From Minisyncoccota bacterium (GTDB lineage Bacteria; Patescibacteriota; Minisyncoccia; Phycocordibacterales; CAIJYI01): a stretch of 64,000 nt of DNA. The notes below the pieces were generated by a model. The model did not search any database, had not been told where the DNA came from, and saw only the letters and a list, made by a program, of their open reading frames with translations. The position numbers were made by a program, and so were the translations under genes. The stretch is taken from positions 1,933-65,932 of the forward strand of contig JALNYN010000005.1 in the NCBI GenBank assembly GCA_023229825.1. Reading direction: 5' to 3'. Each line of letters begins with the position of its first letter. Positions within the stretch are counted from its first letter, which is position 1. Shown piece after piece: positions 33,727 through 63,995 of this stretch.

Positions 33727-36700
33727 ATGTATCAAAAATTCCAAGCTAAGCCTATTCACCACAAGGTCTTTTTTCTCGTGATTGCGGCTACCGTTCTTTT
33801 AAGCTCTGTTTTTGCCGGAATTTTGTATGCACAAAAAACGCTCGCCTCCTTAAATCCCGCTCCGTCGAATTTTATTCCAAACGATCCCTTCCAAATAAAA
33901 GGAGAAACCTCCGGCATCGACAAACATTTTGCCATCACCGATAGTGAATACCTGAACATCACCCTTGATAGTACCGAAAACATCGACCTCAAACTCGTTT
34001 CGCGTCCGAAAGTGATTACCATGATGTTCGAGGCGACCACAACAGCCCAAACAACTCAAATCACTATCTCCAATTTGGCAAAAGACACCACGTACTACAA
34101 ATACGAAGACGATTATCACAATCTCACACAATTCACTACCGACTCGAACGGAAGCTACACCTTCTCCCAAGATATTTCCACCCGCCACTTTGTATTCATC
34201 CAAACCAGAAAAAGCACCAAATTCATCGCTGACAACGCCACAGGAGGAGATTGTACCACGATCGGAACATGGGAAAGCACAACCAAAACCTGTACCCTAA
34301 CGCAAGACCTGACGGAAACCATACAGATCGACAGCGACGGCATCACACTCGACGGGAACGGACATAGCATATTGATCACTCCTGAGTATTCATCTGGCGG
34401 GGTGTATCTCTATGACAAAACGGGGGTTACCGTAAAGAACGTTACCATAAACGGATCACATAGCGGGGTTAGTATTAGCGGGGGAAGCAACAACCGCGTC
34501 GAAAATAGTACTTTTGTGGGTAACACCGGCGGTATTGGTATCAGATACGGCAACAACAATATCATTTCGAACAATACCCTCATTGGCACCGGTATTACTG
34601 TTACTTTTAGCAAAGACAATATTATTGAGTACAATACCGCTAATGATAATGATTATAACGGAATTTCTACTACGCTTTCTTCCGGAACCATTATCAGAAA
34701 CAATACTCTAAATAACAATAGGGTCAGCGGAATATATATTTATGATTCGCAGTTCAATGATCAGATCATTGATAATACTGCCCAAGAAAATGGATACCAA
34801 GATATCGTGCCATTCGGAGCAGAATCACACATACTTAAGTGCTATGATACGATAAGAGGAAATATCGGTTCGGGAGGCTATCCGATCGGATATTTCAGCA
34901 CTTCAACCACTTTAACTTCCGGCACATTCTCAGAACTCATCCTCTGCAACGCTGATCACTCCACTATACGCAACGTAAGAGTGCAAGGCTCTGCAGATAA
35001 GAAAAACGGTATTTTTTTGATAGCTCTCACGAATGATTCAAAATTCGAAAACATCAGCGTTACCAACTCGAACGGATTGCATATTTTGTTTTCCGACCGG
35101 AACGAGGTCGCCGGAGGAATGATGGATTCGAATCGGTACGGTATTACTCTGACGAATGCACATGATAACAGGATCCATGAAAACACGATCTCAAACAGCG
35201 AGACGAGCGCTCTTCGCTTTTTTGTGAAACAATCTTCCGACAATACCATTTACAACAATAATTTTATTAACAACATTTCTCTTTCTTTGGGGGATGGAAC
35301 TTCCAATATTTTTGATCTCCCAAAACCAATTGGGGGAAATTACTGGGACAGTTATCATACTACTGCACAAGGTTGCAACGATACAGATAACGATGGTTTC
35401 TGTGATGCGCCGTATGTTTTTGGAAATGGCGTGCAGGATAACATTCCGTGGACAACACAGGACGGATGGAAAAATGTTTCCGAAAAAACTTTGCAATACG
35501 GTTCCGTTTGGGAGGACGATCTCATTCAAGACCGAAGGGGAGGAGCGAACAAAACCAATTTCTTATTCAAAGTCGTGTATACCGACACGACCGCTTCAAC
35601 GCCGCACATCAGGCTTGTATTCTCCGGTCCGCAGGGAGAGATCAAACTCGGCATGGCTCCGGATACTTCCACCACAACCCCTCTCGAATATCACGACGGC
35701 AATCTCGCCAACGGCGAAGCATTTTCCCGAACCTTAACCTTCCCGAAAGGAACGTATCATTACCATTTCGAAACGGAAGACGGAACGGTAAAGCTGGAAA
35801 ACTCGGAGTATATATTTATGACCGGGTACAGCAATGTGGCGTTTATTCCCGGGTTGGAAGCTTCACGGCTCTTCAGACCCATTGTGGGAGGAGGCGCGCA
35901 GTTATGGCTTCCTGGCGCCAGTGCGCACGCAACAAAACTTTACCTCTCAAGCACAACAGGTGAAAGTTTGGATCCGTCTATTTATGTTTCAGGTGTGGTA
36001 AAAACGGCATATGGGGTAAGTATATATCAGAGTTTTCTTGATAAAATAGAGGAAATGAAAACCTCCGGCGACATAGAGCGCTTTGAAACTTTCCCTTATG
36101 ATTGGCGCAAGTATCAGCCGAACGCCGCCACTCAATTAGTGTCAACGGGACCGAACGGAGAATTTTACTCAATGATCGATCGGATCAAAGAAATGGCCGA
36201 TTCTTCACCAACGGGGAAGGTTGCTATAATCACTCATTCAAACGGCGGGCTTGTGGCAAAAGAATTGGCGGATGCGTTAAAACAACAAGGCAAAGCCAAT
36301 GATATTGAAAAGATTATCATGGTTGCCGCTCCGGAACTTGGAACTCCAAAAGCCATACTCGAAATGCTCCATGGAGCTGAACCATTCCTATTAGGCATAC
36401 CAAACAAAGAGACGACCCGCGAACTCGCCGAAAACATGAAAAGCGCATACTCGCTCTTACCGTCCCGTGAATATTTCAACCGACTTGGTACGCCTCTCCG
36501 CCCGCTTGTTGAATTCAGTACGACAACACAGGCAACTTTATCTTTCAGAAACATTTATGGAAATGATATATCGGATTACGATAATTTGCGCAAATTCTTG
36601 CGCGGTGAAAATGGAATAAGAAAAGAACCAGATCCGAGCGTAGTGAATGAGCCGAACGTACTTAAAGAGAATTTTCTTTCAGATGCGGAAGAACTTCACT

Positions 36701-37920
36701 TGAGACAGGATAATTGGACACCGCCGATCGGGGTGGAGGTCGTTCAAATAATCGGCTGGGGATTGGATACTCCGCATGGCGTGCTGTACACAAAAGCGCG
36801 CAAGCAAAAGACGGTATGCAATGCCGATCTTTCAGTTTGTACTAAAACAGACGTCATTGATCCGCAGCCGCTTAAGACTACTATAGAGGGTGATGGTACG
36901 GTGCAGTATGTTTCTGCTGAGGCGATGGGAGGGGAGAAATACTGGGTGGATATGACCCAACATAATGCATGGTGGCAGTATAATATAAACCGCGACCACA
37001 AAAATATTCTTGAAATCGGTTCACTTCAAACACTACTCGCTACTCTAATAAAGAACCAATCAACAAGTACTTTTCCTGAATATATAACAAATGTAAAACC
37101 GATTCCGCCAACAGTCGACAAACGCCTCCGCATCAGTGCACACTCTCCCGTTTCGCTCCATCTCTACGATTCATTCGGAAAACATACGGGAATTATCCCG
37201 AACCCTGATCTGCAATCTGATTTTGATTTTGTCGAGGAACAAATTCTCAACAGCTACTATTGGCGAATTGGAGAAGGACAGTATACCGGAGTAGGAGCTG
37301 AAGCGACCACGACTATCGTATTGAAAGGAAAAGAAACTGGAACATTCACTCTTGAAATTCAAGAAGTTGTCGGCGGAGAAAACGCTGAAAAAACATTTTT
37401 CCAAAATATCCCCACCACGGCAAGTACCACCGCGACCGTGCAGGTTGGAGAAAATGTGATATCACTGCTCGCTGTTGACCTCGATGGCAACGGAACGATA
37501 GATGCTGAATTTTCGGCAAATGACAATGGAATGATAAGCGATCCCCTCGCATATCTTTCACTTATGAAGAAAACCGTTTCTTCTTTCTCCCTCAAAAAAC
37601 AAACCGAAAAACAGATTTTAACAGACCTTTCTCTGATCGAAAAAACTCTGGAGAACTTTATCAAACTGGACGACAAAACGAAGAAAATTTATGAAAAGCT
37701 CGATTCTAAAATTCGAAACGAAAAATTGAGAGAAAAGTGGAAAGAGTGGAGGGACAAGCATCTTATTCAAAGGAATACGCTTGAAGATAAAATATTGTTC
37801 AATCTGGTAGAGAATGCGGAGAAAAATGTTATTCGACTGAGAAAACAGAAAGAAATATCCATAGACCAAGCGGATATATTATTTACTATGCTTGAGGAGT
37901 TAAAAAGTTTAATTAAATGA
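33727..37920 (+). CDS. giant secreted/anchored protein: right-handed beta-helix (NosD/pectate-lyase-like) + alpha/beta-hydrolase (lipase/PGAP1-like) + Ca-binding-like DxDGNGxID module + coiled-coil tail
   Basis: Signal/anchor VFFLVIAATVLLSS; long series of NxTxxGN beta-helix repeats, GGNYWDSYHT...CNDTDNDGFCD; IITHSNGGLVA nucleophile-elbow-like motif; VDLDGNGTIDAEF; Lys/Glu-rich C-terminus. Confidence 0.7.
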   Translation: MYQKFQAKPIHHKVFFLVIAATVLLSSVFAGILYAQKTLASLNPAPSNFIPNDPFQIKGETSGIDKHFAITDSEYLNITLDSTENIDLKLVSRPKVITMMFEATTTAQTTQITISNLAKDTTYYKYEDDYHNLTQFTTDSNGSYTFSQDISTRHFVFIQTRKSTKFIADNATGGDCTTIGTWESTTKTCTLTQDLTETIQIDSDGITLDGNGHSILITPEYSSGGVYLYDKTGVTVKNVTINGSHSGVSISGGSNNRVENSTFVGNTGGIGIRYGNNNIISNNTLIGTGITVTFSKDNIIEYNTANDNDYNGISTTLSSGTIIRNNTLNNNRVSGIYIYDSQFNDQIIDNTAQENGYQDIVPFGAESHILKCYDTIRGNIGSGGYPIGYFSTSTTLTSGTFSELILCNADHSTIRNVRVQGSADKKNGIFLIALTNDSKFENISVTNSNGLHILFSDRNEVAGGMMDSNRYGITLTNAHDNRIHENTISNSETSALRFFVKQSSDNTIYNNNFINNISLSLGDGTSNIFDLPKPIGGNYWDSYHTTAQGCNDTDNDGFCDAPYVFGNGVQDNIPWTTQDGWKNVSEKTLQYGSVWEDDLIQDRRGGANKTNFLFKVVYTDTTASTPHIRLVFSGPQGEIKLGMAPDTSTTTPLEYHDGNLANGEAFSRTLTFPKGTYHYHFETEDGTVKLENSEYIFMTGYSNVAFIPGLEASRLFRPIVGGGAQLWLPGASAHATKLYLSSTTGESLDPSIYVSGVVKTAYGVSIYQSFLDKIEEMKTSGDIERFETFPYDWRKYQPNAATQLVSTGPNGEFYSMIDRIKEMADSSPTGKVAIITHSNGGLVAKELADALKQQGKANDIEKIIMVAAPELGTPKAILEMLHGAEPFLLGIPNKETTRELAENMKSAYSLLPSREYFNRLGTPLRPLVEFSTTTQATLSFRNIYGNDISDYDNLRKFLRGENGIRKEPDPSVVNEPNVLKENFLSDAEELHLRQDNWTPPIGVEVVQIIGWGLDTPHGVLYTKARKQKTVCNADLSVCTKTDVIDPQPLKTTIEGDGTVQYVSAEAMGGEKYWVDMTQHNAWWQYNINRDHKNILEIGSLQTLLATLIKNQSTSTFPEYITNVKPIPPTVDKRLRISAHSPVSLHLYDSFGKHTGIIPNPDLQSDFDFVEEQILNSYYWRIGEGQYTGVGAEATTTIVLKGKETGTFTLEIQEVVGGENAEKTFFQNIPTTASTTATVQVGENVISLLAVDLDGNGTIDAEFSANDNGMISDPLAYLSLMKKTVSSFSLKKQTEKQILTDLSLIEKTLENFIKLDDKTKKIYEKLDSKIRNEKLREKWKEWRDKHLIQRNTLEDKILFNLVENAEKNVIRLRKQKEISIDQADILFTMLEELKSLIK

Positions 37921-38384
37921 ACATGAAACAAAATAATAAACTATATAAATACATTACTTTCGTCATATCTTTATTTTTCGTAGTCATTTTATGTGGGTTG
38001 CTGTTTTATTCTTATACCAAGTCCTCCTGTTCTTATTATTTGAAGGGGACATATCAAATAGATTCAAATTGTTATGATATTCGTGAGTATTATAATCACT
38101 TTAACCAAATTGTAGTTGCATTATTAATGAGTTTTTCTTCCCTATTTCTGATTTCAATTTTCCTCCTCTTCGTCCGCCGCGAAGCATTCATCGCATGGTC
38201 AAAATTCGCAGCCGTGGCGTTTCCCATCATGCTGGGCACCCTGTTGTATACTTTCACTCACGAAAGCGACGGTGCGGCATGGATGAGCGGTCCGTCCAAT
38301 GCTCAAATAGCGATGACGATTTTACCGTTTCTGTTTACTGTCATTTCGTTAGCGATTATAGCCGTCAAACAAACGGAAAAATAA
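37917..38384 (+). CDS. small 4-TM membrane protein, paralog 1 of a triplicated family
   Basis: Shares WxKFAxxxxPI...AIIAVK C-terminal pattern with 39741..40166 and 40377..40820. Confidence 0.5.
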   Translation: MNMKQNNKLYKYITFVISLFFVVILCGLLFYSYTKSSCSYYLKGTYQIDSNCYDIREYYNHFNQIVVALLMSFSSLFLISIFLLFVRREAFIAWSKFAAVAFPIMLGTLLYTFTHESDGAAWMSGPSNAQIAMTILPFLFTVISLAIIAVKQTEK

Positions 38385-38392
38385 AGAAATTA

Positions 38393-38546
38393 CTTAACCA
38401 ATGCAACCGACGTCAACATTACAAAAAATATCCCACCGAAAATTTCAGACAAACGGCACCCGGTTTTTTCCGCGCGACACTTTCATATGCAAAAAGAAAC
38501 GTTACAACACGCGTTTATCAAAACAATGGTGCCTGTCCCCATTTTC
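38393..38546. repeat. ~160-bp direct repeat unit H, copy 1 (ends in family-C REP-like hairpin)
   Basis: ttaaccaatgcaaccgac...ttccgcgcgacactttcatatgcaaaaagaaacgttacaacacgcgtttatcaaaacaatggtgcctgtccccatttt; near-identical at 40160-40333, degenerate at 40814-40979. Confidence 0.6.
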
Positions 38547-39674
38547 CACAACTGGATCCCGCCGAAAAGCGTGCGCGTGGTGCAGATCGCCGGATGGGGA
38601 ATACCTGATACCATTCGCGGACTCGAATACAAAGGGAATTTTCACGAACGATGTACCAGCGCGGGGATGAACAGTTTTTGTCACGACGAAGGAACGTTTG
38701 ATTATGCTCCTCTCTTTACGTTCGACGGCGATGGAACAGTGGTTTTTCCGAGTCAGATCGGAATGGCAACGGCGACGGAGATGTATTTTGTGGATTTAAA
38801 TGGGTATAATAATTCGCTCGGTAACTCAACAATAAATTTTCGAAAGGATAGAACGCATGCTTCGGTACTAGAAGTGGGTGATCTGAGAGATTTATTGAAA
38901 AGCATAATTTCAGAAGAAATAAATCCAGCGAATGGTTTGAATTACATTAAAACCAGCATTACTCAGTTAAACACGGGAAGCCTTAAAAAACTCATCCGCC
39001 TTTCCCTTCGTTCCCCCGTAAAAATCGACGTCTTTGACCAGCAAGGAAGCCATATCGGAATTTCCTCAAGCTCAACGCCAAGTTATACACTCTACGATAC
39101 TCAAATGCCGAACTCATATTATTTAGAAATGGGAGAGGGAAAGTATCTCGGTTTTTCGCTTGATTCGACGAAGACGATAAAACTTCAAGGTATAGGAACG
39201 GGAACTTTCACTTTATCATTCGATCAATATCAAGGAGATACCAAGGAAGCGTCTCAAACTTTTACTGATATTCCGGTAAGTACAACGACCAAAGCGACGC
39301 TTTTGATGAGTACTATAAATGATGCTAAGGAACTTTCTCTTGATAATGATGGAAATGGAACAATTGACACGATTGTCTTCACTGACGAAAACAAAGAGAC
39401 GATAACCTTTCAAACTCTGAAAAATGAAATTCTAAAACTTGATTCAAAAGTACGACCTTCTTTGGTCAATCAAGTTTCAACTGCGGAGAAACAATTTGCC
39501 AAAAAGAATTATACCACAACAAAAGCGCTGTTTATTGTTCTTAAAAAAGAAATCAACCTCCTTTCGCAAAAAAAGATAGGGAATAAATGGCAGATTGAGA
39601 AAATTCAGGCATTAAAAATCTTGGCAGTAATTGACGTACTTATCGCTCAAATGGATGAGTTTGTTCATCGCTGA
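38487..39674 (+). CDS. paralog of the C-terminal ~400 aa of the giant protein (lacks signal peptide, beta-helix and hydrolase parts)
   Basis: HNWIPPKSVRVVQIAGWG / LSLRSPVKIDVFDQQGSH / GTGTFTLSFDQ / LDNDGNGTIDTIVF align with residues ~1000-1397 of 33727..37920. Confidence 0.5.
   Translation: MQKETLQHAFIKTMVPVPIFHNWIPPKSVRVVQIAGWGIPDTIRGLEYKGNFHERCTSAGMNSFCHDEGTFDYAPLFTFDGDGTVVFPSQIGMATATEMYFVDLNGYNNSLGNSTINFRKDRTHASVLEVGDLRDLLKSIISEEINPANGLNYIKTSITQLNTGSLKKLIRLSLRSPVKIDVFDQQGSHIGISSSSTPSYTLYDTQMPNSYYLEMGEGKYLGFSLDSTKTIKLQGIGTGTFTLSFDQYQGDTKEASQTFTDIPVSTTTKATLLMSTINDAKELSLDNDGNGTIDTIVFTDENKETITFQTLKNEILKLDSKVRPSLVNQVSTAEKQFAKKNYTTTKALFIVLKKEINLLSQKKIGNKWQIEKIQALKILAVIDVLIAQMDEFVHR
38525..38545 (+). 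repeat. family-C REP-like hairpin (aatggtgcctgtccccatt)
   Basis: AATGG...CCATT stem with tgcctg loop; coincides with codons MVPVPIF of downstream ORF and with the start of homology to the giant protein. Confidence 0.5.
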
Positions 39675-39740
39675 GAAAATGAGCCAAAGAGATGGAAAAA
39701 ATAAAGGAGAAGATGAAAAAATCAATAACTAACTATTTTT

Positions 39741-40166
39741 ATGCAATACAAAAAACAAGTTTTAGGATTATTTATAACAACTACGACAATTTTTGCGCTC
39801 ATAGTTGCTTTAGGTGAATTATTTGACTCCCAATGCAACTCGGCAGTCGGTTTTTTTGATGATCTATGTCATAATTCGAGCAATATCCAATTATTCACAC
39901 AACCTATTGCGTTGCTCTCTCTCTCTCTTATTATTATCCTTCCCCCCCTCTACTTCTTCCGCGGAGAAATCTATCTCGCATGGCGCAAATTCACTCTCTG
40001 GTATCTTCCAATTGTTGCCATTCTCCTCATTATTGCTCGCCCCTCTGGCGGCGGTATGAGCTTTGGTTTTGACCGCGAATCTCTCTCTTTTCATTTTTCC
40101 GCATATTTCGTTATCGTTTCGCTGGTTATCATTGCAGTAAAATCATGGAAATTAAGAGGGAAGTAA
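39741..40166 (+). CDS. small 4-TM membrane protein, paralog 2
   Basis: WRKFTLWYLPIVAILLIIARP...VIIAVKSWKLRGK. Confidence 0.5.
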   Translation: MQYKKQVLGLFITTTTIFALIVALGELFDSQCNSAVGFFDDLCHNSSNIQLFTQPIALLSLSLIIILPPLYFFRGEIYLAWRKFTLWYLPIVAILLIIARPSGGGMSFGFDRESLSFHFSAYFVIVSLVIIAVKSWKLRGK

Positions 40167-40333
40167 AACGTGAGAAAATTTTAACCAATGCAACCGACAG
40201 TAACATTACAAAAAACATCCAACAGAAAATTTCAGACAAACGGCGTCCGATTTTTTCCGCGCGACACTTTTATATGCAAAAAGAAACGTTACAACACGCG
40301 TTTATCAAAACAATGGTGCCTGTCCCCATTTTC
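40160..40333. repeat. direct repeat unit H, copy 2
   Basis: Starts within the last codons of paralog 2 and runs through a second copy of the MQKETLQHAFIKTMVPVPIF start and REP-C hairpin. Confidence 0.6.
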
Positions 40334-40372
40334 GCTTTGTTTGAAAGATTAAAAGAGATAATTATGAAATAA
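40274..40372 (+). pseudogene. truncated remnant of a 38487-type gene (first 20 codons identical, then stop)
   Basis: MQKETLQHAFIKTMVPVPIF identical to N-terminus of 38487..39674, followed by 12 unrelated codons and a stop. Confidence 0.45.
40312..40330 (+). repeat. family-C REP-like hairpin
   Basis: aatggtgcctgtccccatt. Confidence 0.5.
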
Positions 40373-40376
40373 ACTT

Positions 40377-40820
40377 ATGAATTATAGAAAAAAAATATTA
40401 TTATTTTATTTTACTTTATGTTTTTTCCTGTTAATAAGTATTATTCCATTTGCACCTCATTGGTTTGGATTTTGTGATAGTTTTGTAGACTACGAATGCA
40501 AAGATAAATTCAACAAATATAAGTTGTTTAGTGCGATTATTTCATTTGCATCTTCAATTATTATATTCGGTGCACTTTTAGTTCGTCTTCGAATTAAATC
40601 AAAAGAAGCGTTTCTGGTGTGGCAAAAATTTGCAATTATTTGGATTCCGATTTCTATACTCCTCATTGCAAGAGCTCCCGCTCAACGCGACTGTTTTTTC
40701 GGTGGACCTTTTTGCTCCGGGTTTGACCGAGAAGGAATGATTTGGTTTACGGCAGGCATCTTTTTTATTGTGTCCATTGCCATTATCGCAGTAAAAACAT
40801 GGAAATTGAAAGGGAAGTAA
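40377..40820 (+). CDS. small 4-TM membrane protein, paralog 3
   Basis: WQKFAIIWIPISILLIARAP...IIAVKTWKLKGK. Confidence 0.5.
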   Translation: MNYRKKILLFYFTLCFFLLISIIPFAPHWFGFCDSFVDYECKDKFNKYKLFSAIISFASSIIIFGALLVRLRIKSKEAFLVWQKFAIIWIPISILLIARAPAQRDCFFGGPFCSGFDREGMIWFTAGIFFIVSIAIIAVKTWKLKGK

Positions 40821-40979
40821 ACCGTGAGAAAATTTTAACCAATGGAACCACCAACCGGATTACAAAAAATATCCCACCGAAAATTTCAGATAAACAGCTG
40901 CCAAGTTTTTCCGCGCAGCCCCTTCACCATAAGCAAAAAAACACCTCAACACATATTTTGAAAAGAATGGGTGCCTGGA
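40814..40979. repeat. direct repeat unit H, copy 3 (degenerate; ends in degenerate family-C motif agaatgggtgcctgga)
   Basis: gggaagtaaaccgtgagaaaattttaaccaatggaacc... aligns with copies 1 and 2. Confidence 0.5.
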
Positions 40980-41060
40980 TTTATTCAACCTTGAACTGCA
41001 ACAGTCGTCGTTGATGGTCGATAGCGCGCCGAACTTAACGAACACAGAAGAAAAGTTCGA

Positions 41061-41096
41061 AAAAACTCGCCGGCTTGCGGCGAGTTTTGTTTTCTT
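41061..41096. terminator. bidirectional terminator
   Basis: aaaactcgccggcttgcggcgagtttt. Confidence 0.75.
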
Positions 41097-41283
41097 ACAT
41101 AGGATAGGAGATCCATCTCGCATATTCGTAGAGTTCGTAGGCTATGATAACGCCCAGTAAAGCATACAGCCAGCCGACCCATTTCCAATTTTTTGAGCTA
41201 AAGTCTATCACTGCGCGAACCGCAAGCAGCAGAGCTTTAAAAATTTCTCCCGATTCTGATAAAAAATTTAATATTTTTTTCAA
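41095..41283 (-). CDS. small membrane protein (hypothetical)
   Basis: 62 aa, TTG start 7 nt after GAGGAGG, C-terminal TM helix. Confidence 0.35.
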   Translation of the reverse strand: MKKILNFLSESGEIFKALLLAVRAVIDFSSKNWKWVGWLYALLGVIIAYELYEYARWISYPM

Positions 41284-41455
41284 GATTAGTCCTCCTCATG
41301 TATTTTTTTCGATAAAATATCGGTAAAATCTACTTAAAACATTATACCCTATGTGTTTTTTTGTCAATACAAAGAGCATAAAACTCTAACGGGGTCAAAT
41401 TGCCCCAAAAGATGATTTATGGTATATTGCGTCTACAACTAATAAATATACGCAT

Positions 41456-42645: not shown

Positions 42646-43356
42646 ATGCAACCGACTTTAAACAAGGAGCGTTTTATATTGCCGTATTGGACATGTGAGA
42701 TCGGACAGCGCATTTCGATGCTCATAACCGGGCCAGTGTGTCGCGTATTTTTTCGGACGCGAGTCATGGGATATGAAAACATAAAAGATCTCAAGCCAGG
42801 GGTGGTATTTGCGCTAAATCATACGAGCGAATGGGATCCGATCGTTTTTGCGAATGGTTTCAACATATTTTCAAAAATGATACCGCTCTACACAACATCA
42901 AGAGAGAAAAACTTTTACAAAACAAGCGCCTTGAGATCAATATTTTACGGGGGAAATCTTTTCCGGTTCATGGGAGCTTTTCCAGTTGTTGTCGGCGTGA
43001 AAAATTATGAACGATCTCTCGCGTTCCATATTAAAATGCTAAAAAATGGGAAAAACGTTCTTATTTTTCCTGAAGGTCATTGCACAAAAGACGGAAAATT
43101 GCAGCCGGCGAAGGGTGGTGTCGTGGCGCTCGCGAGGGCGGCGAACGTACCCGTCATTCCGGTCGGGGTCACTGGTCTTTTTAACATTACGCCGAAAGAA
43201 TTTTTTTTGAGGAAGCGCCGAGTTGGTCTTTATTTCGGAAAACCGATATATCCGAATGAACTTTTTCTTGAGAACGGACGAGTGGGATATTCTGCGTATC
43301 CTCAAATCGCGAATGAAATAATAATGTCAAAGATCGCGGAACTTATCGATCTATAA
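42646..43356 (+). CDS. plsC: 1-acyl-sn-glycerol-3-phosphate acyltransferase
   Basis: NHTSEWD (HxxxxD) and FPEGHCTKDG motifs. Confidence 0.75.
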   Translation: MQPTLNKERFILPYWTCEIGQRISMLITGPVCRVFFRTRVMGYENIKDLKPGVVFALNHTSEWDPIVFANGFNIFSKMIPLYTTSREKNFYKTSALRSIFYGGNLFRFMGAFPVVVGVKNYERSLAFHIKMLKNGKNVLIFPEGHCTKDGKLQPAKGGVVALARAANVPVIPVGVTGLFNITPKEFFLRKRRVGLYFGKPIYPNELFLENGRVGYSAYPQIANEIIMSKIAELIDL

Positions 43357-48078: not shown

Positions 48079-48439
48079 AGGTTCCCGTATCGGATAGTTG
48101 CCCCGAGTTTGTCGAGGGGAGGAAAGTCCGAACACACACTGCCGTCACAAGCGACAGTAGCATGGTAGCGGGTAACGCCCGTCCGGAGCGATCCGCGAGA
48201 TGCGAGCAGAGACGGTTTGTTTTGAAAGAAACAAACTATCCTTCGCAAGAAGGATAAGTTCTCTTGGTAACAAGAGAGGTGAAACGGCTAAACTCTTACC
48301 GGTGTGCAAGGCCGTGTCCCGATTTATCGGGAAGTGCCGCTTGAGGGTTGTGGTAACATAACTCCCAGATAAATAACTATCGTCCTGCGTAGCCTCGGCA
48401 AAGCAGGATACAGAATTCGGCTTACAGATACGAGAACCT
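48079..48439 (+). ncRNA. rnpB: RNase P RNA (bacterial type A)
   Basis: P4 core GAGGAAAGTCCG, GGTGAAACGGctaaactcTTACC, ACAGAAttCGGCTTA; P1 pairing aggttcccgtatc / gatacgagaacct. Confidence 0.7.
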
Positions 48440-48445
48440 AATAAA

Positions 48446-53876: not shown

Positions 53877-53948
53877 TCCCCCCGGCAAGAATCGAACTTG
53901 CATTTTAAGTTCCGGAAACTTATGTCCTATCCATTGAACGACGGAGGG
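53877..53948 (-). tRNA. tRNA-Arg (anticodon CCG)
   Basis: Minus-strand cloverleaf: acceptor CCCTCCG/CGGGGGG, D-arm GTTC..GGAC, anticodon stem TAAGT/ACTTA with loop TTCCGGA, T-arm GCAAG-TTCGATT-CTTGC, discriminator A; no encoded CCA. Confidence 0.75.
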
Positions 53949-55674: not shown

Positions 55675-58146
55675 ATGACAGAAACAGGATTGAGAAAAAA
55701 ACGGCTCAAAATTAAGATACAGGGCACCGTACAAGGCGTCGGATTCCGACCTTTTGTGTTGCGGCTTGCTGAGAAACTGGGTGTTTTAGGCTGGGTTATT
55801 AACGGCGTTCGAGGCGTTGAGATCGCTGCAGAGGCGGATGTGATAGACCTTCTTGAATTTGCCCGGTGCGTTGTAGATCATGCTCCCGAAGTGGCGGCGA
55901 TCGATTTCGTGGAATATTCGTATCTCGACGATACGGAAAAATATGAAAAATTCGAAATTCGCGAAAGCGACAATTTTGGAGAAAAAACAGCCTTGGTGCT
56001 TCCCGACTTGGCAACATGTCCGGAGTGCCAAAGCGAAATATTCGACAGAAAAAATCGGCGCTTTCGGTATCCGTTCACGAACTGCACCAACTGCGGTCCG
56101 CGACATTCAATTATCGAACGGGTCCCGTATGATCGCCCGAATACATCGATGAAAGTTTTTCCGATGTGTCCGGAATGCGAGAAAGAATACAACGATCCTG
56201 CGAATCGCAGGTTCTATGCACAGCCGAACGCATGCCCAGTTTGCGGTCCGCATTTGGTACTGCTGGATCAAAATGGAAAAGATCTCGCAACTCGAGATAG
56301 TGCGCTTCGTATGGCAGAAGAATATATTGATTACGGAAAAGTCGTCGCCTTAAAAGGGCTTGGCGGTTTTCAATTGATAGTCGATGCCATTAATCCGATC
56401 GCGATCAAAAAGTTGCGCGAGAGAAAGGGACGGCCAGGACAAAAACCGTTTGCGGTTATGTATCCGAACATTGAACTGGTAAAAGCGCATTGCGAAGTTT
56501 CGATGGAAGAAGAAAAACTTCTTTTGTCCCGACAATCGCCGATCGTGCTTTTAAAGAGGAAGGACCGTCCTTCCGAAGTTGAGAAAGTTCCACATAAAGA
56601 TATCGCTCCCGATAGCAACGTTCTCGGCGTGATGCTTCCATACACTCCGCTTCATCATCTATTGATGGCGGATCTCGGTTTTCCGATCGTTGCCACGAGC
56701 GGCAACTTGTCGGACGAGCCTATCATTACGGATGAGGATGAGGCGGTCGTATTGCTTGGACATATTGCGGACGCTTTTCTCGTTCATAATCGCGGTATCG
56801 TTCGTCACGTTGACGATTCGATCGCGAGAGTGATAAACGGGAAGACTGTCATCTTGAGAAGGGCGCGGGGATACGCTCCGATGCCTATAAAAGTCGAAAG
56901 TCGAAAGTCCCTGCTTCGCCAAGGCTATGCAGGGCAAGCACCAGTCGAAAGTACGCCGACGATCGTGGCTTTTGGTCCAGATCTGAAAAATGTGGGGGCG
57001 GTTCTCACCGATGGCAAAGTCTATTTGACACAGCACATCGGCGATATGGGAACCACAGCTTCCGGGGACGCACTTTTGAGATCGATCAACGACACGCTCG
57101 CTTTTCGGGAGAAAAAACCGGAGGCGGTTGTCTGCGATCTGCATCCCGATTACGCATCGACAAGAATGGCGGAAGCGTTTGCCGAGGAACATCACATTCC
57201 TCTCTATCGCGTCCAGCATCACAAAGCGCATATTTTATCCGCAATGACTGAAAATGACATTGTAGGAAAAACAGCGCTCGGTGTGGCTTGGGACGGTACG
57301 GGATACGGCGAAGACGGCACGATCTGGGGCGGAGAATTTTTCCGCGTCAGCGAAACCGGCCTCACGCGCTACGCGCATTTGCGCACTTTCGGTTTGATCG
57401 GCGGCGACAAAGCCGCACGTGAGCCGAGATACTCCGCAGCCGCGATCCTTTATGAGATCTACGGAAAAGAAATTTTCGATTCCGACAGATTCGCATCGGT
57501 GAAAGCGCTGATTGGCGTTGAAAGGAAACTCTTTCCTCAAATGCTGAAAAACAAAATGAACGTCGTTATGACATCCAGTGCCGGAAGATTGTTCGATGCC
57601 GTCGCTTCGATCCTAGATATTTGCCACTCGTCCGATTATGAAGGGCATGCGGCGATACTTTTGGAACAGGCGATCGGCGATGAAACGACCAATGAAAATT
57701 ATGAGATATCCGTCGTAAAAGATGGGGATGAATATATATTTAATTGGGAACCGATGATCCGCGACATCGTATATGAATACGAGTTGGGAATTCGTCCGGG
57801 CGTTATTGCGAAAAAAATTCACAATACGCTCGCGAGGGTGATCGCTCGAATTTTTCTCGTTTCAGGAGAAGGACGGCTTGTTCTTTCCGGCGGATGTTTT
57901 CAAAATAAATATCTGTTGGAAACAACGATAAAAAAACTTGAGGGATATTCGGACGACGGCAGAATATTCACTCAAGGCAAGGTGCCGATGAATGACGGAG
58001 GCATTGCTCTCGGTCAGATCACGGCGGTGTTAGATTCCGTCCGTCATTCCGGACTTGATCCGGAATCCACGTCGGAAACGTTAAATATAGATTCCGGGTC
58101 CATCCTCCGCCAAGGCTACGGCATGGCGCGGCGTTGCCCGGAATGA
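55675..58146 (+). CDS. hypF: [NiFe]-hydrogenase maturation carbamoyltransferase HypF
   Basis: Acylphosphatase domain (IQGTVQGVGFRPFV), two CxxC-x18-CxxC zinc fingers, YrdC and Kae1-like domains; last ~35 codons lie in a family-B repeat. Confidence 0.9.
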   Translation: MTETGLRKKRLKIKIQGTVQGVGFRPFVLRLAEKLGVLGWVINGVRGVEIAAEADVIDLLEFARCVVDHAPEVAAIDFVEYSYLDDTEKYEKFEIRESDNFGEKTALVLPDLATCPECQSEIFDRKNRRFRYPFTNCTNCGPRHSIIERVPYDRPNTSMKVFPMCPECEKEYNDPANRRFYAQPNACPVCGPHLVLLDQNGKDLATRDSALRMAEEYIDYGKVVALKGLGGFQLIVDAINPIAIKKLRERKGRPGQKPFAVMYPNIELVKAHCEVSMEEEKLLLSRQSPIVLLKRKDRPSEVEKVPHKDIAPDSNVLGVMLPYTPLHHLLMADLGFPIVATSGNLSDEPIITDEDEAVVLLGHIADAFLVHNRGIVRHVDDSIARVINGKTVILRRARGYAPMPIKVESRKSLLRQGYAGQAPVESTPTIVAFGPDLKNVGAVLTDGKVYLTQHIGDMGTTASGDALLRSINDTLAFREKKPEAVVCDLHPDYASTRMAEAFAEEHHIPLYRVQHHKAHILSAMTENDIVGKTALGVAWDGTGYGEDGTIWGGEFFRVSETGLTRYAHLRTFGLIGGDKAAREPRYSAAAILYEIYGKEIFDSDRFASVKALIGVERKLFPQMLKNKMNVVMTSSAGRLFDAVASILDICHSSDYEGHAAILLEQAIGDETTNENYEISVVKDGDEYIFNWEPMIRDIVYEYELGIRPGVIAKKIHNTLARVIARIFLVSGEGRLVLSGGCFQNKYLLETTIKKLEGYSDDGRIFTQGKVPMNDGGIALGQITAVLDSVRHSGLDPESTSETLNIDSGSILRQGYGMARRCPE

Positions 58147-58147
58147 C
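58043..58147. repeat. family-B REPIN-like element, copy 9 (long subtype) overlapping hypF 3' end
   Basis: cgtcattccggacttgatccggaatccacgtc ... attccgggtccatcctccgccaaggctacggcatggcgcggcgttgcccggaatgac. Confidence 0.6.
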
Positions 58148-58167
58148 AAAGTAAAGGAGGTGATGAT

Positions 58168-58395
58168 ATGTGTTTATCTATACCGGGAAAAATCGTTGCT
58201 ATTGAAGGCAATGAACCTTTCCGCACAGCCAAAGTGAATTTTGGAGGGGCGATAAAAGGCGACATTTCGCTTTTGTTTTGCCCCGGTGCGAAAGTCGACG
58301 ATTATTGCCTGACTCATGCGGGCAATGCGCTTGAAATAATCGATGAAGCGCTTGCGCTTGAAACGATCACATTGCTGCAAAGCGTCAGGAGATAA
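58168..58395 (+). CDS. hypC: hydrogenase maturation factor HypC
   Basis: N-terminal MCLSIPGK (essential Cys2). Confidence 0.85.
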   Translation: MCLSIPGKIVAIEGNEPFRTAKVNFGGAIKGDISLLFCPGAKVDDYCLTHAGNALEIIDEALALETITLLQSVRR

Positions 58396-58397
58396 CG

Positions 58398-60656: not shown

Positions 60657-60700
60657 TTTCAAGGATTTGTGCTATGATAGCCAGTGTAAATCGAGATATT

Positions 60701-60770
60701 GGGGTGTAGTGTAATGGTAACACGCCTGCCTTTGAAGCAGGAGACTCTTGGTTCGAGCCCAAGCGCCCCA
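60701..60770 (+). tRNA. tRNA-Gln (anticodon TTG)
   Basis: Acceptor GGGGTGT/GCGCCCC (two G-U pairs), anticodon stem CCTGC/GCAGG with loop CTTTGAA, T-arm CTTGG-TTCGAGC-CCAAG; CCA not encoded. Confidence 0.7.
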
Positions 60771-60847
60771 GCACGCAAAAAATTACCTCGCAAAGGAGTA
60801 TCTTTTGCAGGTGATTTTTGTGTAAATTATTAGCATACGGATTTTAA

Positions 60848-62625: not shown

Positions 62626-62637
62626 GGAAATTTTAGT

Positions 62638-62661
62638 CAGAATGGGTGCCTGACCCCGATT
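62638..62661 (+). repeat. family-C REP-like hairpin
   Basis: cagaatgggtgcctgaccccgatt. Confidence 0.5.
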
Positions 62662-62710
62662 CTACTTATTCAAAATTCATGTACTAATGATTTAATCGGA
62701 TTGAAAAAAA

Positions 62711-63228: not shown

Positions 63229-63247
63229 AATGGGGTCAGGCACTATT
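63229..63247 (-). repeat. family-C REP-like hairpin, inverted orientation, immediately upstream of RAYT
   Basis: aatggggtcaggcactatt = reverse complement of aatagtgcctgaccccatt. Confidence 0.55.
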
Positions 63248-63261
63248 GTTTTTAAAAAAGT

Positions 63262-63957
63262 ATGATACAATATTCTCCTATGCCAAGAAATGAAAGAGTT
63301 GATGTCGGGGGTGAAGTCTATCACGTCATAAACAGAGGAAATGGCAGGCAGACTATTTTCCAAAATGAAGAAGACTATCTTCTTTTTGAATCACTGCTTG
63401 AACACGCAAAGGAATTTATTGTGGATATGAGAATCATCGCTTATACGATTATGCCGAATCATTGGCATCTTGTTTTGTATCCAAAAAAGGACGGTGATCT
63501 TTCTCTCTTTATGCACTGGCTTACGACAAGCCACACCCGAAAACATCATGTCATGAAAGAAAATATCGGTGGCGGGCATCTCTATCAAGGAAGATACAAA
63601 TCATTTCTTGTGGATACGGACAGTTATTTTCTCTCTGTTTTTAAATACGTAGAAAGAAATCCGATGAGGGCAAAGTTGACGGAAAATTGTGAAGATTGGC
63701 GATGGGGAAGTTCGTGGAGAAGATCGAACGGTTCGGAAAAAGAGAAAAAATTGCTTTCCTCGCCGCTCGTTGATTTTCCGGAAAAATACAGCGTATGGAT
63801 AAACAAACCGGAAAAAGAAGATGATGTTGTAAAGATCAGAAATTCGATAAATAAAGGAGTACCGTATGGTCGCGATATTTGGAGTATGGATATGGTTGAA
63901 AAATATGAATTGTCTTCATCGCTGAATAAGCCGGGGAGACCGAAGAAAAAACATTAG
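63262..63957 (+). CDS. REP-associated tyrosine transposase (RAYT; IS200/IS605-like Y1 HuH transposase family)
   Basis: HuH motif IMPNHWHLVL and catalytic Tyr context YQGRYKSFLVDTDSYFLSVFKYVERNPMRA; flanked by inverted REP-C hairpins. Confidence 0.8.
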   Translation: MIQYSPMPRNERVDVGGEVYHVINRGNGRQTIFQNEEDYLLFESLLEHAKEFIVDMRIIAYTIMPNHWHLVLYPKKDGDLSLFMHWLTTSHTRKHHVMKENIGGGHLYQGRYKSFLVDTDSYFLSVFKYVERNPMRAKLTENCEDWRWGSSWRRSNGSEKEKKLLSSPLVDFPEKYSVWINKPEKEDDVVKIRNSINKGVPYGRDIWSMDMVEKYELSSSLNKPGRPKKKH

Positions 63958-63972
63958 AACATGAAAATTACA

Positions 63973-63995
63973 AAAGAATGGTGCCTGACCCCATT
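63973..63995 (+). repeat. family-C REP-like hairpin, direct orientation, immediately downstream of RAYT
   Basis: aaagaatggtgcctgaccccatt. Confidence 0.55.

What the first reader, a model, noticed from the sequence alone, without database searches (positions are those of the whole stretch)
33727..40990. Giant beta-helix plus lipase-like secreted protein followed by partial paralog copies and triplicated 4-TM partner genes
The 1397-aa protein combines a long NosD/pectate-lyase-type parallel beta-helix, an alpha/beta-hydrolase segment with an HSNGG nucleophile elbow, a DxDGNGTID calcium-loop-like module and a coiled-coil tail. The architecture suggests an envelope-degrading or host-interaction enzyme. 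Downstream, its C-terminal 400-aa module is duplicated without a signal peptide (38487..39674). Three paralogous small membrane proteins are interleaved with it. For a putatively symbiotic small-genome organism this looks like a diversifying surface or attack locus. The function of the small TM proteins, whether immunity, chaperone or anchoring, is unknown.
Basis: partly seen in the sequence, partly recalled or inferred. Interest (0 to 1): 0.7.

Follow-up and report, generated by a model that had tools for sequence, protein, structure and literature searches.

The report
Surface lipase with swappable membrane-partner cassettes
A tiny symbiotic bacterium (Candidatus Paceibacterota) encodes a giant surface protein ending in a phospholipase-type enzyme, always paired with a small four-helix membrane protein of an undescribed family. 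Behind this pair sit displaced spare copies, arranged like the toxin-immunity cassette arrays of other bacteria. This makes the locus a candidate tool for attacking or harvesting the membranes of other cells.

Summary
Gene A (33727-37920, 1397 aa) has an N-terminal anchor, a NosD-type beta-helix, an Ig-like linker, an LCAT/LPLA2-type hydrolase with a conserved Ser838-Asp1056-His1091 triad, a beta-sandwich and a three-helix tail. Its stop overlaps T1, a four-helix membrane protein.

B (38487-39674) is not a duplicated module. It is a 5'-truncated, divergent allele that starts inside the hydrolase fold, with Asp and His but no Ser. It is 33% identical to A but 77% identical to the C-terminus of a full-length gene elsewhere. 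T2 follows B. A 12-codon stub of a third allele type then precedes T3. Each stub abuts the right end of a conserved ~170-nt non-coding element that ends in a REP-like sequence.

In 73 of 75 evaluable species genomes, a small polytopic membrane gene directly follows the lipase gene (median gap 3 nt). Orphan cassettes recur in many genomes. Co-occurring relatives carry each other's cassette types.

Best reading (about 0.5): this is a polymorphic effector-immunity-like locus. The surface phospholipase acts on foreign membranes and the T proteins protect the producer. The main rival is that T is a docking or lipid-acceptor subunit. The T family has at least 1395 cluster representatives and no Pfam model. 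I found no description of the system.

The parts
33727..37920 (+). Gene A, 1397 aa. Modular surface protein: N-terminal hydrophobic anchor or signal (aa 10-36), conserved N-domain (37-214), NosD-type parallel beta-helix (215-570), Ig-like linker (585-700), LCAT/LPLA2-type alpha/beta hydrolase (701-1110), beta-sandwich (1130-1265), three-helix tail (1273-1397).
   Evidence: 100% identical to NCBI 'NosD domain-containing protein', Candidatus Paceibacterota
35827..37056 (+). LCAT-like hydrolase domain of A. Nucleophile elbow HSNGG (nt 36235-36249, Ser838), GDGTV (36889-36903, Asp1056), His1091 (within 36988-37005).
   Evidence: Pfam PF02450 at 54.3 bits. S, D and H are nearly invariant in a 52-sequence alignment. 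Foldseek hits: LPLA2 4e-13, Tle4 1.5e-10, LCAT 3.5e-9.
37114..37917 (+). Beta-sandwich, ending in the conserved DLDGNGTID loop (nt 37477-37503), plus the helical tail of A. This is alpha-type C-terminus.
   Evidence: AF2 model; conserved D561/G566/D569; 72% tail identity to L092/P0002 and 53% to the L001 orphan
37917..38384 (+). T1, 155 aa. Four-helix membrane protein, predicted N-in/C-in, and the cognate partner of A. Its start overlaps A's stop (ATGA).
38385..38546 (+). Element E copy 1. Conserved non-coding T-downstream element ending in the REP-like AATGGTGCCTGTCCCCATT (38525-38543). It supplies the ATG of ORF B.
38487..39674 (+). ORF B, 395 aa. Orphan, 5'-truncated beta-type C-terminus. 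Homology to lipase genes runs from 38550 (equivalent to A residue 996) to 39671. It has GDGTV Asp and His, the sandwich and the tail, but no Ser nucleophile and no signal.
   Evidence: 77% identical to P0005 res 1026-1397, 70% to P0006; dN/dS 0.08-0.15
39741..40166 (+). T2, 141 aa. Beta-type four-helix membrane partner, 57-59% identical to the T genes that follow P0005.
40167..40333 (+). Element E copy 2 (REP-like 19-mer at 40312-40330).
40334..40372 (+). Stub holding the last 12 codons plus stop of a gamma-type tail ('ALFERLKEIIMK*'), fused to the right end of E copy 2.
   Evidence: About 85% nt identity to the 3' end of the L001 main gene P0004
40377..40820 (+). T3, 147 aa. Gamma-type four-helix membrane partner, 69% identical to the T gene that follows the main lipase gene of L001.
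40821..40987 (+). Element E copy 3, decayed (62-78% identity to the other copies).
41062..41088 (+). The only strong intrinsic-terminator-like hairpin of the region (11-bp stem plus T run). It probably marks the end of the A-T1-B-T2-T3 transcription unit.
63229..63995 (+). RAYT-like Y1 (HUH) transposase gene (63262-63957). It is flanked in inverted orientation by the same REP-like sequence that ends element E (63229-63244 on the minus strand, 63980-63995 on the plus strand), with a further copy at 62645-62660.
   Evidence: PF01797; NF047646, 58 bits

Best explanation
The locus works like a polymorphic effector-immunity system adapted to a single-membrane, epibiotic Patescibacterium.

Gene A is exported and held at the cell surface by its N-terminal hydrophobic segment. 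A beta-helix stalk presents an LCAT/LPLA2-type phospholipase or acyltransferase (Ser838-Asp1056-His1091) to the membrane of another cell, either a host or a competing epibiont, where it cleaves or trans-acylates phospholipids.

T1 is translationally coupled to A. It is a four-helix membrane protein with two acidic outward loops, one of which is a hypervariable, disulfide-framed loop. It sits in the producer's own membrane and specifically neutralises the cognate enzyme.

The downstream units are displaced ('orphan') cassettes left by earlier exchanges of the 3' part of the gene together with its T gene. These units are B+T2 and the 12-codon stub+T3. Their intact T genes are kept because they protect against lipase variants made by co-occurring relatives.

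Shown:
- domain architecture, fold and triad
- near-universal lipase-T gene pairing
- recurrent orphan arrays
- linkage of C-terminus type with T type
- allele swapping at one locus
- matching of cassette types between contigs from the same sample

Inferred:
- lipase activity and its target
- the protective role of T
- the mechanism of exchange. This is recombination whose right-hand junction always lies at the REP-like end of element E.
For: Enzyme:
- Pfam LCAT match.
- Nearly invariant S/D/H.
- AF2 pLDDT 90.5.
- Foldseek hits LPLA2 at 4e-13, the antibacterial T6SS phospholipase Tle4 at 1.5e-10 and LCAT at 3.5e-9.

Modular 'polymorphic' scaffold:
- The same N-terminal beta-helix region (42-58% identity) is fused to NlpC/P60, a C39-like peptidase or unknown C-termini in other Paceibacterota proteins.
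- P0012 shares the first ~600 aa with A, 66-84% identical over the first ~250, and nothing after that. P0006 is 92-96% identical over residues 600-700 but only 14-24% in the helix.

Pairing:
- Of 75 evaluable species-representative loci, 58 have a T-family gene directly downstream and 15 have another 92-141-aa gene with 3-4 membrane helices. The median gap is 3 nt and 63 of 73 gaps are <=10 nt.
- Two look-ups that started from T genes also landed behind LCAT-type genes.

Orphan arrays:
- Truncated C-terminus plus intact T occurs in L001, L010, L013, L030, L035 and L093. L090 carries several C-terminal stubs and T genes. L023 and L061 carry downstream beta-sandwich fragments without a detected T gene.
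- T-only arrays occur in L055 (4 copies) and L064 (3 copies).

Type linkage:
- Beta: B/T2 resemble P0005, P0006 and L005 with their T genes. Tails are 58-77% identical and T genes 48-59%.
- Alpha: A/T1 resemble P0002 with its T gene (72% and 62%).
- Gamma: the stub and T3 resemble P0004 with its T gene (T 69%).

Population signals:
- L090 and L092 come from one sample and share the upstream flank (86% nt over ~1 kb), yet they carry different C-termini and T genes.
- The window contig, L001, L005 and L091 all come from ENA sample ERZ27249449.

T proteins:
- T genes evolve faster than the C-termini (dN/dS 0.3-0.7 against ~0.1).
- Variability is concentrated in outward loop 1, which has two Cys in 138 of 160 family members. 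The inward loop and C-terminus are conserved and positively charged.

Precedent: toxins that act at membranes typically have membrane-bound or lipoprotein immunity proteins, including ones with a 4-TM core (PMC12419801).
Against: - No experiment shows lipase activity, toxicity or protection.
- Known phospholipase immunity proteins (Tli) are soluble or lipoprotein, not 4-TM.
- The pair is near-universal and sits in a core-genome neighbourhood (dnaK/dnaJ, ribosomal genes). That also fits a housekeeping function.
- Across 60 loci, T similarity tracks the hydrolase core (r 0.62) no less than the tail (r 0.47). Co-variation is therefore explained by linkage and phylogeny, and there is no domain-specific co-evolution signal.
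- The 'polymorphic' C-terminus is always the same fold within this family.
- A and B share no exact word longer than 14 nt, so B is not a ready donor for RecA-type switching in this genome.
- The T model matches no solved fold.
Confidence: 0.5

Rival explanations
1. Lipid-harvesting machine. The LCAT-like enzyme strips acyl chains or lysolipids from host membranes for a bacterium that cannot make lipids. T is a functional subunit, either a membrane dock for the helical tail, an activator, or an acceptor or insertion site for lipid. The truncated copies and extra T genes are by-products of recombination at a fast-evolving host-interaction locus.
For: - LCAT and LPLA2 are trans-acylases, and they are the best fold matches.
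- The pair is present in 73 of 75 evaluable species loci, with near-obligatory translational coupling.
- The locus sits among core genes.
- An acyltransferase (PF01553) lies two genes downstream in the window and in L003.
- The literature reports that lipid uptake mechanisms are unidentified in Patescibacteria and that lysolipids are enriched in CPR cells (PMC11665869, citing PMC7242380).
- The inward-facing loop and TM4 of T are conserved family-wide, as expected for a mechanistic subunit.
Against: - It does not explain why intact T genes are retained behind C-terminal stubs of only 12-110 codons, nor T-only arrays of 3-4 genes.
- It does not explain why co-occurring relatives carry each other's T types.
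- T genes show high dN/dS and a hypervariable outward loop.
- Some partners are so divergent that the family profile misses them.
Confidence: 0.28
2. Surface variation by silent cassettes. A is chiefly an adhesin or surface antigen. B and the stubs are silent donor cassettes used to replace the 3' end of A, to evade host defences or phages. T co-varies because it anchors the tail.
For: - Mosaic identity profiles show frequent recombination, including a hypervariable beta-helix between conserved blocks.
- Allelic replacement occurs at one locus (L090 against L092).
- B shows purifying-selection-like dN/dS and an intact 395-codon frame.
- A conserved element E flanks every cassette.
Against: - A and B are only 33% identical and share no exact word longer than 14 nt.
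- Most orphan fragments are too short (12-110 codons) to serve as useful donors.
- The catalytic triad is strictly conserved, which argues that the enzyme function is what selection maintains.
Confidence: 0.12
3. Plain decay. A tandem duplication of a lipase-T operon was followed by deletions. B is a pseudogene and T2 and T3 are redundant paralogs without specific function.
For: - B lacks the nucleophile and any export signal.
- Element copy 3 is decayed (62%).
- No promoter or terminator signal above background lies inside the array.
Against: - B, T2 and T3 are each closer to genes in other genomes than to A and T1. They are therefore not products of a local duplication.
- The same layout recurs independently in many lineages, always with the T genes intact.
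- B's branch shows no excess of non-synonymous change.
Confidence: 0.1

Closest known systems
Polymorphic toxin systems with orphan toxin-immunity cassettes (CdiA-CT/CdiI, Rhs; Zhang et al. 2012 framework, recalled and as summarised in PMC12419801 and PMC8636562)
   Same: - Large exported protein with a beta-helical or fibrous stalk and a variable C-terminal enzymatic region.
- Small cognate gene immediately downstream.
- Arrays of 5'-truncated C-terminal fragments, each followed by an intact small gene.
- Strain-to-strain cassette replacement.
   Different: - The organism is a single-membrane CPR bacterium, and no T5SS, T6SS or T7SS genes or domains were seen at the locus.
- The variable region keeps one fold (LCAT-like lipase plus sandwich plus tail).
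- No conserved pre-toxin demarcation motif was found, and breakpoints vary.
- The partner belongs to a new 4-TM family.
- Orphans are joined at the end of a REP-containing non-coding element.
- The pair is almost universal in the clade rather than sporadic.
T6SS phospholipase effector-immunity pair Tle4-Tli4 (PDB 4r1d)
   Same: Alpha/beta-hydrolase phospholipase fold with a cap domain (Foldseek E 1.5e-10). The effector acts on membranes and is encoded next to a cognate protective gene.
   Different: Tle4 is delivered by a T6SS into the periplasm of Gram-negative targets. Tli4 is a soluble periplasmic protein rather than a four-helix membrane protein. Sequence identity is about 14%.
LCAT / lysosomal phospholipase A2 family (PF02450; PDB 4x92, 4xx1)
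   Same: The Pfam match is above the gathering score. The Ser-Asp-His triad motifs (xSxGG, GDGTV, H) are present. These are the best fold matches (TM-score 0.65 on the target).
   Different: These are eukaryotic soluble enzymes of ~400 aa. Here the domain is embedded in a 1397-aa surface protein with a beta-helix, a sandwich and a helical tail. About 15% identity. Activity is untested.
Firmicute secreted lipases with a C-terminal beta-sandwich (BlEst2, PDB 6wpx; EstA3, PMC10816834)
   Same: The hydrolase is followed by a beta-sandwich packed against it (Foldseek E 7e-8 over ~650 aligned columns). In those enzymes the C-terminal domain modulates activity. It is deposited as inhibitory in the BlEst2 propeptide form, and in EstA3 it is needed for long-chain substrates.
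   Different: They have no beta-helix stalk, no helical tail, and no reported 4-TM partner gene or orphan arrays.
REP/RAYT systems (REPINs; PMC3116915, PMC5581495)
   Same: A single-copy Y1 transposase-like gene (63262-63957) is flanked by inverted copies of a short palindromic sequence. That sequence also occurs elsewhere, often as inverted doublets.
   Different: Here a REP forms the 3' end of a longer conserved element E, which marks every cassette junction of the lipase locus. The 19-mer is shared by contigs of very different G+C content. The score to NCBIfam RAYT is below the cut-off (58 against 80 bits).

Membership tests
LCAT/LPLA2-like alpha/beta hydrolases (Pfam PF02450) | Profile match above the curated gathering score | tested here: met
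   54.3 bits against a cut-off of 21, residues 765-1075. Precomputed PF02450 hits appear on dozens of homologues.
LCAT/LPLA2-like alpha/beta hydrolases (Pfam PF02450) | Ser-Asp-His catalytic triad with a nucleophile elbow | tested here: met
   HSNGG (S838), GDGTV (D1056) and H1091 are nearly invariant in a 52-sequence alignment. Triad geometry in the model was not inspected.
LCAT/LPLA2-like alpha/beta hydrolases (Pfam PF02450) | Fold with a cap or lid inserted in the hydrolase core | tested here: met
   Foldseek top hits are LPLA2 4x92 (E 3.9e-13, TMt 0.65) and LCAT, using a model with pLDDT 90.5.
LCAT/LPLA2-like alpha/beta hydrolases (Pfam PF02450) | Phospholipase A or acyltransferase activity | not testable with these tools
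   Needs an enzyme assay.
Polymorphic toxin-immunity systems | Shared N-terminal export and stalk region with alternative C-terminal effector regions among relatives | tested here: met
   The same beta-helix N-region is fused to LCAT, NlpC/P60, a C39-like peptidase or unknown C-termini. Identity profiles are mosaic.
Polymorphic toxin-immunity systems | Small cognate gene immediately downstream of the effector gene | tested here: met
   73 of 75 evaluable loci, median gap 3 nt. The gene's presence is shown. Its immunity function is not.
Polymorphic toxin-immunity systems | Downstream orphan cassettes: a 5'-truncated C-terminal fragment plus an intact small gene | tested here: met
   Seen in the window (B+T2, stub+T3) and in L001, L010, L013, L030, L035 and L093. 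L090 carries several stubs and T genes.
Polymorphic toxin-immunity systems | Conserved demarcation motif or pre-toxin domain at the boundary of the variable region (e.g. VENN, PT-HINT) | tested here: not met
   Orphan start points vary: A-equivalent residue 996, ~1168, ~1320 and the last 12 codons. Other truncated homologues start 3-64 residues before the GWG strand. No conserved motif was found at a boundary.
Polymorphic toxin-immunity systems | Effector toxicity and specific neutralisation by the cognate partner | not testable with these tools
   Needs co-expression experiments.
T6SS Tle/Tli lipase effector-immunity pairs | Linkage to T6SS genes (VgrG, PAAR, Hcp) and a periplasmic Tli-type immunity protein | tested here: not met
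   No T6SS-type genes appear among the called genes of the fetched loci. The partner is a four-helix membrane protein. Only the fold resembles Tle4.
NosD (nitrous-oxide reductase maturation protein) | Full-length match to the NosD family model | tested here: not met
   TIGR04247 scores 61.5 bits against a cut-off of 300. Only the generic parallel beta-helix repeats match (PF05048, PF13229, TIGR03804). The NCBI name 'NosD domain-containing protein' describes the repeat, not the function.
REP/RAYT | Y1 HUH transposase-like gene flanked by inverted REP copies | tested here: met
   PF01797 on the gene. Inverted copies lie at 63229-63244 (minus strand) and 63980-63995 (plus strand). NF047646 scores 58 bits, below the cut-off of 80.
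REP/RAYT | Many dispersed REP copies within the same genome | tested here: inconclusive
   Only 6 copies were found in the 64-kb window, at the RAYT locus and the T locus, counting the decayed copy in E3. None occur in the next 10 kb. The 19-mer is present in at least 119 metagenome contigs.
T family (undescribed 4-TM partner) | Any match to a curated family (Pfam, NCBIfam, PADLOC) or a solved fold | tested here: not met
   No Pfam, NCBIfam or PADLOC hit passes a threshold. The best Foldseek PDB hit has E 4.7. The family has 1395 cluster representatives at E<=1e-3.

The most novel reading that the evidence does not exclude
The LCAT-like surface enzyme and its four-helix membrane partner are the missing lipid-acquisition apparatus of Patescibacteria. 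The enzyme trans-acylates or releases lysolipids from host membranes. T receives or inserts them, or gates the enzyme. The cassette arrays record an arms race over host membranes.

A second, independent novel element is that cassette replacement may be catalysed or targeted by the REP/RAYT system. Every orphan junction lies exactly at the REP-like end of a non-coding element that is more conserved than the neighbouring genes.
Probability: 0.2. Interest if true: 0.9.

Novelty: new variant of a known kind. Interest (0 to 1): 0.7.

Why it matters
Patescibacteria cannot make lipids. A 2024 review states that no lipid uptake or breakdown mechanism has been identified in them (PMC11665869). How they damage or tap host cells is also largely unknown.

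This locus defines a concrete, widespread and testable two-gene module. It consists of a surface LCAT-type phospholipase and a new family of four-helix membrane partners with at least 1395 sequence clusters. At least 414 relatives of the lipase gene were found in species-representative genomes.

The population-level cassette exchange resembles that of toxin-immunity systems. If the immunity reading is right, contact-dependent polymorphic effector systems extend to the CPR, and competition among epibionts or with hosts becomes visible in metagenomes. If the lipid-harvest reading is right, a long-standing question about CPR physiology becomes testable.

The locus also shows a REP-containing element sitting at every cassette junction.

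Tried and rejected
1. Repeat element E as a structured RNA: rejected. MFE z-scores are +1.35 (plus strand) and -0.80 (minus strand). The RNAalifold consensus is -0.29 kcal/mol. Rfam gives only RNase P and two tRNAs in the window.
2. E as coding sequence: rejected. Variable columns by codon phase are 22/23/22. Orphans are fused to E in different frames.
3. REP 19-mer as a T-locus-specific signal: rejected. Of 80 metagenome loci carrying it, 1 lies behind a T gene and 7 lie next to RAYT homologues.
4. Domain-specific co-evolution of T with the tail (mirror-tree over 60 loci): no support. Correlations are core 0.62, sandwich 0.54 and tail 0.47.
5. T fold search against PDB: no meaningful hit.
6. 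Pfam, NCBIfam and PADLOC on T1-T3 and B: nothing passes a threshold.
7. PDB sequence search with A: no hit.
8. B as a donor for homologous recombination with A: unlikely. The longest shared word is 14 nt.
9. A nuclease payload orphan in L090: rejected. The SNase gene is a separate membrane-anchored protein, and only an Ig-linker stub is fused to E.
10. L036 as part of the window's contig because of equal length: rejected by blastn.
11. Calls that yielded nothing:
   - The search for related loci with the large alignments
   - context look-ups for P0136 and P0012
   - afdb50, which was unavailable
12. No SignalP or TMHMM was available. Topology rests on Kyte-Doolittle hydropathy and the positive-inside rule.

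Full report
**Observation**

- Gene A (33727-37920, 1397 aa) is 100% identical to an NCBI protein annotated 'NosD domain-containing protein' from a Candidatus Paceibacterota MAG. The window therefore comes from a CPR/Patescibacteria genome.
- Pfam gives NosD/Beta_helix over about residues 215-570 and LCAT (PF02450) over residues 765-1075, at 54 bits against a cut-off of 21. Weaker DUF7379 and PGAP1 hits surround the HSNGG motif.
- The full NosD model is not met (61 bits against 300). 'NosD' here means only the parallel beta-helix repeat.
- A has one N-terminal hydrophobic segment (residues 10-36). B has none. T1-T3 each have four.

**Structure of the C-terminal half**

An AlphaFold2 model of residues 691-1397 was built on 52 homologues and has pLDDT 90.5 and pTM 0.89. 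It shows three parts:
- an alpha/beta hydrolase with a cap (model residues 1-420)
- a beta-sandwich (440-575) that ends in the conserved DLDGNGTID loop
- three long helices (583-706)

Foldseek against PDB gives lysosomal phospholipase A2 (E 3.9e-13, TM 0.65 on the target) as the best hit. Next come the T6SS antibacterial phospholipase Tle4 from the Tle4-Tli4 complex (1.5e-10), LCAT (3.5e-9) and Bacillus lipase BlEst2 in propeptide form (7e-8). Ser838 (HSNGG), Asp1056 (GDGTV) and His1091 are nearly invariant across the family. The sandwich is a domain also found next to Firmicute lipases, where it modulates activity (PMC10816834 and the 6wpx deposition title).

**What B really is**

B aligns to A residues 996-1267 at only 33% identity. 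It begins after the cap helix, inside the hydrolase fold. It keeps the Asp and His motifs, the sandwich and the tail, but lacks the Ser nucleophile and the first two thirds of the fold.

A tblastn search shows B is 77% identical to residues 1026-1397 of the full-length protein P0005, 70% to P0006 and 60% to the L005 gene. B is therefore a 5'-truncated copy of a different allele type, which I call beta. It is not a duplicate of A's own C-terminus, which I call alpha.

Its 395-codon frame is intact. Its dN/dS against full-length genes (0.08-0.15) equals that among full-length genes, and its branch shows no excess of non-synonymous change. Either the truncation is recent or the fragment is still constrained.

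**The repeat element and the third cassette**

A 153-175-nt direct repeat follows each T gene: 38385-38546, 40167-40333 and 40821-40987. I call it element E.
- E supplies the ATG and the first 20 codons of ORF B. This is why those 20 codons recur after T2.
- E is non-coding. Variable columns are spread 22/23/22 over codon phases, and orphans in other genomes are fused to E in another frame.
- E has no RNA-structure signal.
- Directly after E copy 2 lie the last 12 codons of a third allele type (gamma). They are ~85% identical at nucleotide level to the 3' end of the main gene of locus L001. T3 follows, and it is 69% identical to L001's main T gene.

The array therefore reads: A(alpha)-T1-E | B(beta, truncated)-T2-E | stub(gamma)-T3-E-terminator. 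The only strong terminator is at 41062-41088. The array region has lower G+C (0.395-0.40) than most of the window.

**Comparative genomics**

A scan of species-representative genomes found 414 relatives of the lipase region, and 80 loci were analysed.
- 75 loci had enough downstream sequence to evaluate.
- 58 have a T-family gene directly after the lipase gene.
- 15 have another 92-141-aa gene with 3-4 hydrophobic helices in the same position.
- Only 2 lack one, and one of those is a frameshifted gene.
- The median gap is 3 nt, and 63 of 73 gaps are <=10 nt.

Starting from T genes instead, two independent look-ups again landed directly behind LCAT-type genes.

The beta-helix is not universal. 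Some partners, such as L006, are only signal peptide, LCAT domain, sandwich and tail. The conserved core is therefore the lipase plus T.

Orphan units of a truncated C-terminus followed by an intact T recur in L001, L010, L013, L030, L035 and L093. L090 carries several C-terminal stubs and T genes. L023 and L061 carry downstream beta-sandwich fragments without a detected T gene. L055 and L064 have 4 and 3 T genes in a row. L001 has the same five-part layout as the window, but with the types permuted: its main gene is gamma and its first orphan is alpha-like.

**Variability**

Identity profiles along A are mosaic.
- P0004 and P0012 share ~80% identity with A over the first 250 aa, then drop to 30-40% or to nothing.
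- P0006 is 92-96% identical over residues 600-700 but only 14-24% in the beta-helix.

L090 and L092 come from the same sample and share the upstream flank and gene start (86% nt over ~1 kb). Yet they carry beta and alpha C-termini with the matching T types. The window contig, L001, L005 and L091 all come from one ENA sample. Co-occurring relatives therefore carry each other's cassette types, as main copies or as orphans. Related proteins reuse the N-terminal scaffold with NlpC/P60, C39-like or unknown C-termini.

**The T family**

A profile search found 1395 cluster representatives at E<=1e-3 and 542 at E<=1e-10. No Pfam, NCBIfam or PADLOC match passes a threshold.
- The AF2 model (pLDDT 77) is a four-helix bundle with a small hairpin in loop 1. 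It has no PDB fold match.
- In 160 members, charge distribution predicts an N-in/C-in topology.
- Outward loop 1 is the most variable region in sequence and length, yet it is framed by two Cys in 138 of 160 members.
- The inward loop (E..F..W.KF), TM4 and the basic C-terminus are conserved.
- T genes evolve faster than the adjoining C-termini (dN/dS 0.3-0.7).

**Interpretation**

The anatomy matches what is known for polymorphic effector-immunity loci:
- a stalked exported protein
- a variable enzymatic C-terminal region
- a tightly coupled small partner gene
- displaced 5'-truncated C-terminal fragments that always keep the partner gene intact
- exchange between strains

I therefore favour a surface phospholipase used on foreign membranes, with T proteins as cognate and orphan protectors (confidence about 0.5).

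The evidence is genomic only, and several points count against a simple filing:
- No pre-toxin demarcation motif exists.
- The C-terminal fold is constant.
- The partner is unlike known Tli proteins.
- The pair is nearly universal and sits among core genes.
- Global co-variation of T with the tail is no stronger than with the core.

The main rival (0.28) is that T is a working subunit of a lipid-harvesting enzyme. That would address the open question of lipid acquisition in Patescibacteria (PMC11665869; PMC7242380). Silent-cassette surface variation (0.12) and plain decay (0.1) are less likely, for the reasons given under the rival explanations.

**The REP link**

Element E ends in AATGGTGCCTGNCCCCATT. 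The same sequence flanks, in inverted orientation, a RAYT-like Y1 transposase gene at 63262-63957. It also occurs in at least 119 metagenome contigs of widely different G+C, often as inverted doublets. Only 1 of the 80 retrieved loci is at a T gene, and 7 are at RAYT homologues. So it is a generic REP-type sequence.

Two things remain unexplained.
- E is more conserved between copies and genomes (mean 78% nt) than the T genes it follows (63%).
- Orphan fragments with a complete upstream E copy begin exactly at its REP end. This holds in the window (both junctions), in L001 (one junction), in L090 (one) and in L128. In three further cases, one in L001 and two in L090, the stub follows a truncated E copy instead.
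- Other lineages carry other REP-like palindromes behind their T genes.

RAYT-assisted breakage, or use of E as a homology arm, is possible but untested.

**Novelty**

Literature searches found general statements that Patescibacteria encode phospholipases. I found no description of this LCAT-type protein, of its 4-TM partner family or of the orphan arrays. I rate it a new variant of a known kind, with interest 0.7.

Noticed in passing
window 63262-63957, with 62645-62660, 63229-63244 and 63980-63995: RAYT-like Y1 (HUH) transposase gene flanked by inverted copies of a REP-like sequence (AATGGTGCCTGACCCCATT). The identical 19-mer is found in at least 119 metagenome contigs of very different G+C, often as inverted doublets. 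That is unusually broad for a REP family.
   Followed up: partly
window 60904-63217: Low-GC island (37-38%) encoding a 573-aa OLD/GajA/AriA/PtuA-like ABC ATPase (PADLOC AriA 2.8e-25, GajA 1e-20) and a 168-aa partner with a weak PtuB hit. REP copies bracket the 168-aa partner gene. It is a candidate anti-phage defence module next to the RAYT gene.
   Followed up: partly
window 55675-60592: HypF, HypC, HypD and HypE hydrogenase-maturation genes (Pfam labels from the gene table of L007, which is the same contig). This implies a [NiFe]-hydrogenase in this Paceibacterota genome.
   Followed up: no
window 38385-38546, 40167-40333, 40821-40987; L001, L090, L091, L128: The non-coding element E behind T genes is more conserved (mean 78% nt) than the T genes themselves (63%), although synonymous sites of neighbouring genes are saturated. 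It shows neither a coding nor an RNA-structure signal.
   Followed up: yes
window 37917-38384: The NCBI record annotates T1 as only an 85-aa protein (P0155, WCT49_00605). The family alignment supports the 155-aa form, which starts at the ATG overlapping A's stop.
   Followed up: partly
window 40988-41455: Unusually long (636 nt) intergenic stretch between T3 and dnaJ. It holds the decayed E copy, a strong bidirectional-looking terminator hairpin (41062-41088) and a 62-aa hydrophobic minus-strand ORF (41095-41283).
   Followed up: no
L064 9554-11080; L006 576-1330; L093 3808-3900; L095 3150-3215: Other lineages carry different REP-like palindromes directly behind their T genes. L064 has repeated GTACCAAGGTTAAACCTTGGTA, like the repeats flanking the Y1 transposase of L006. 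L093 has a tandem 28-mer. L095 has a perfect 21-bp inverted doublet.
   Followed up: partly
L005 1-2623; L016; L027; L030: Several lipase genes are split by frameshifts or stops, and many contigs end inside these loci. This fits either assembly trouble or real decay at a variable, repeat-bearing locus.
   Followed up: no
window 48082-48440, 53877-53948, 60700-60771: RNase P RNA (class A, 123 bits) and two tRNA genes. One tRNA sits at the border of the low-GC island.
   Followed up: no
window 42646-43356; L003 11581-12282: A PlsC-type acyltransferase gene (PF01553) lies two genes downstream of the lipase-T locus in both syntenic genomes. It could re-acylate lysolipids, but it may simply be a neighbour.
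   Followed up: no
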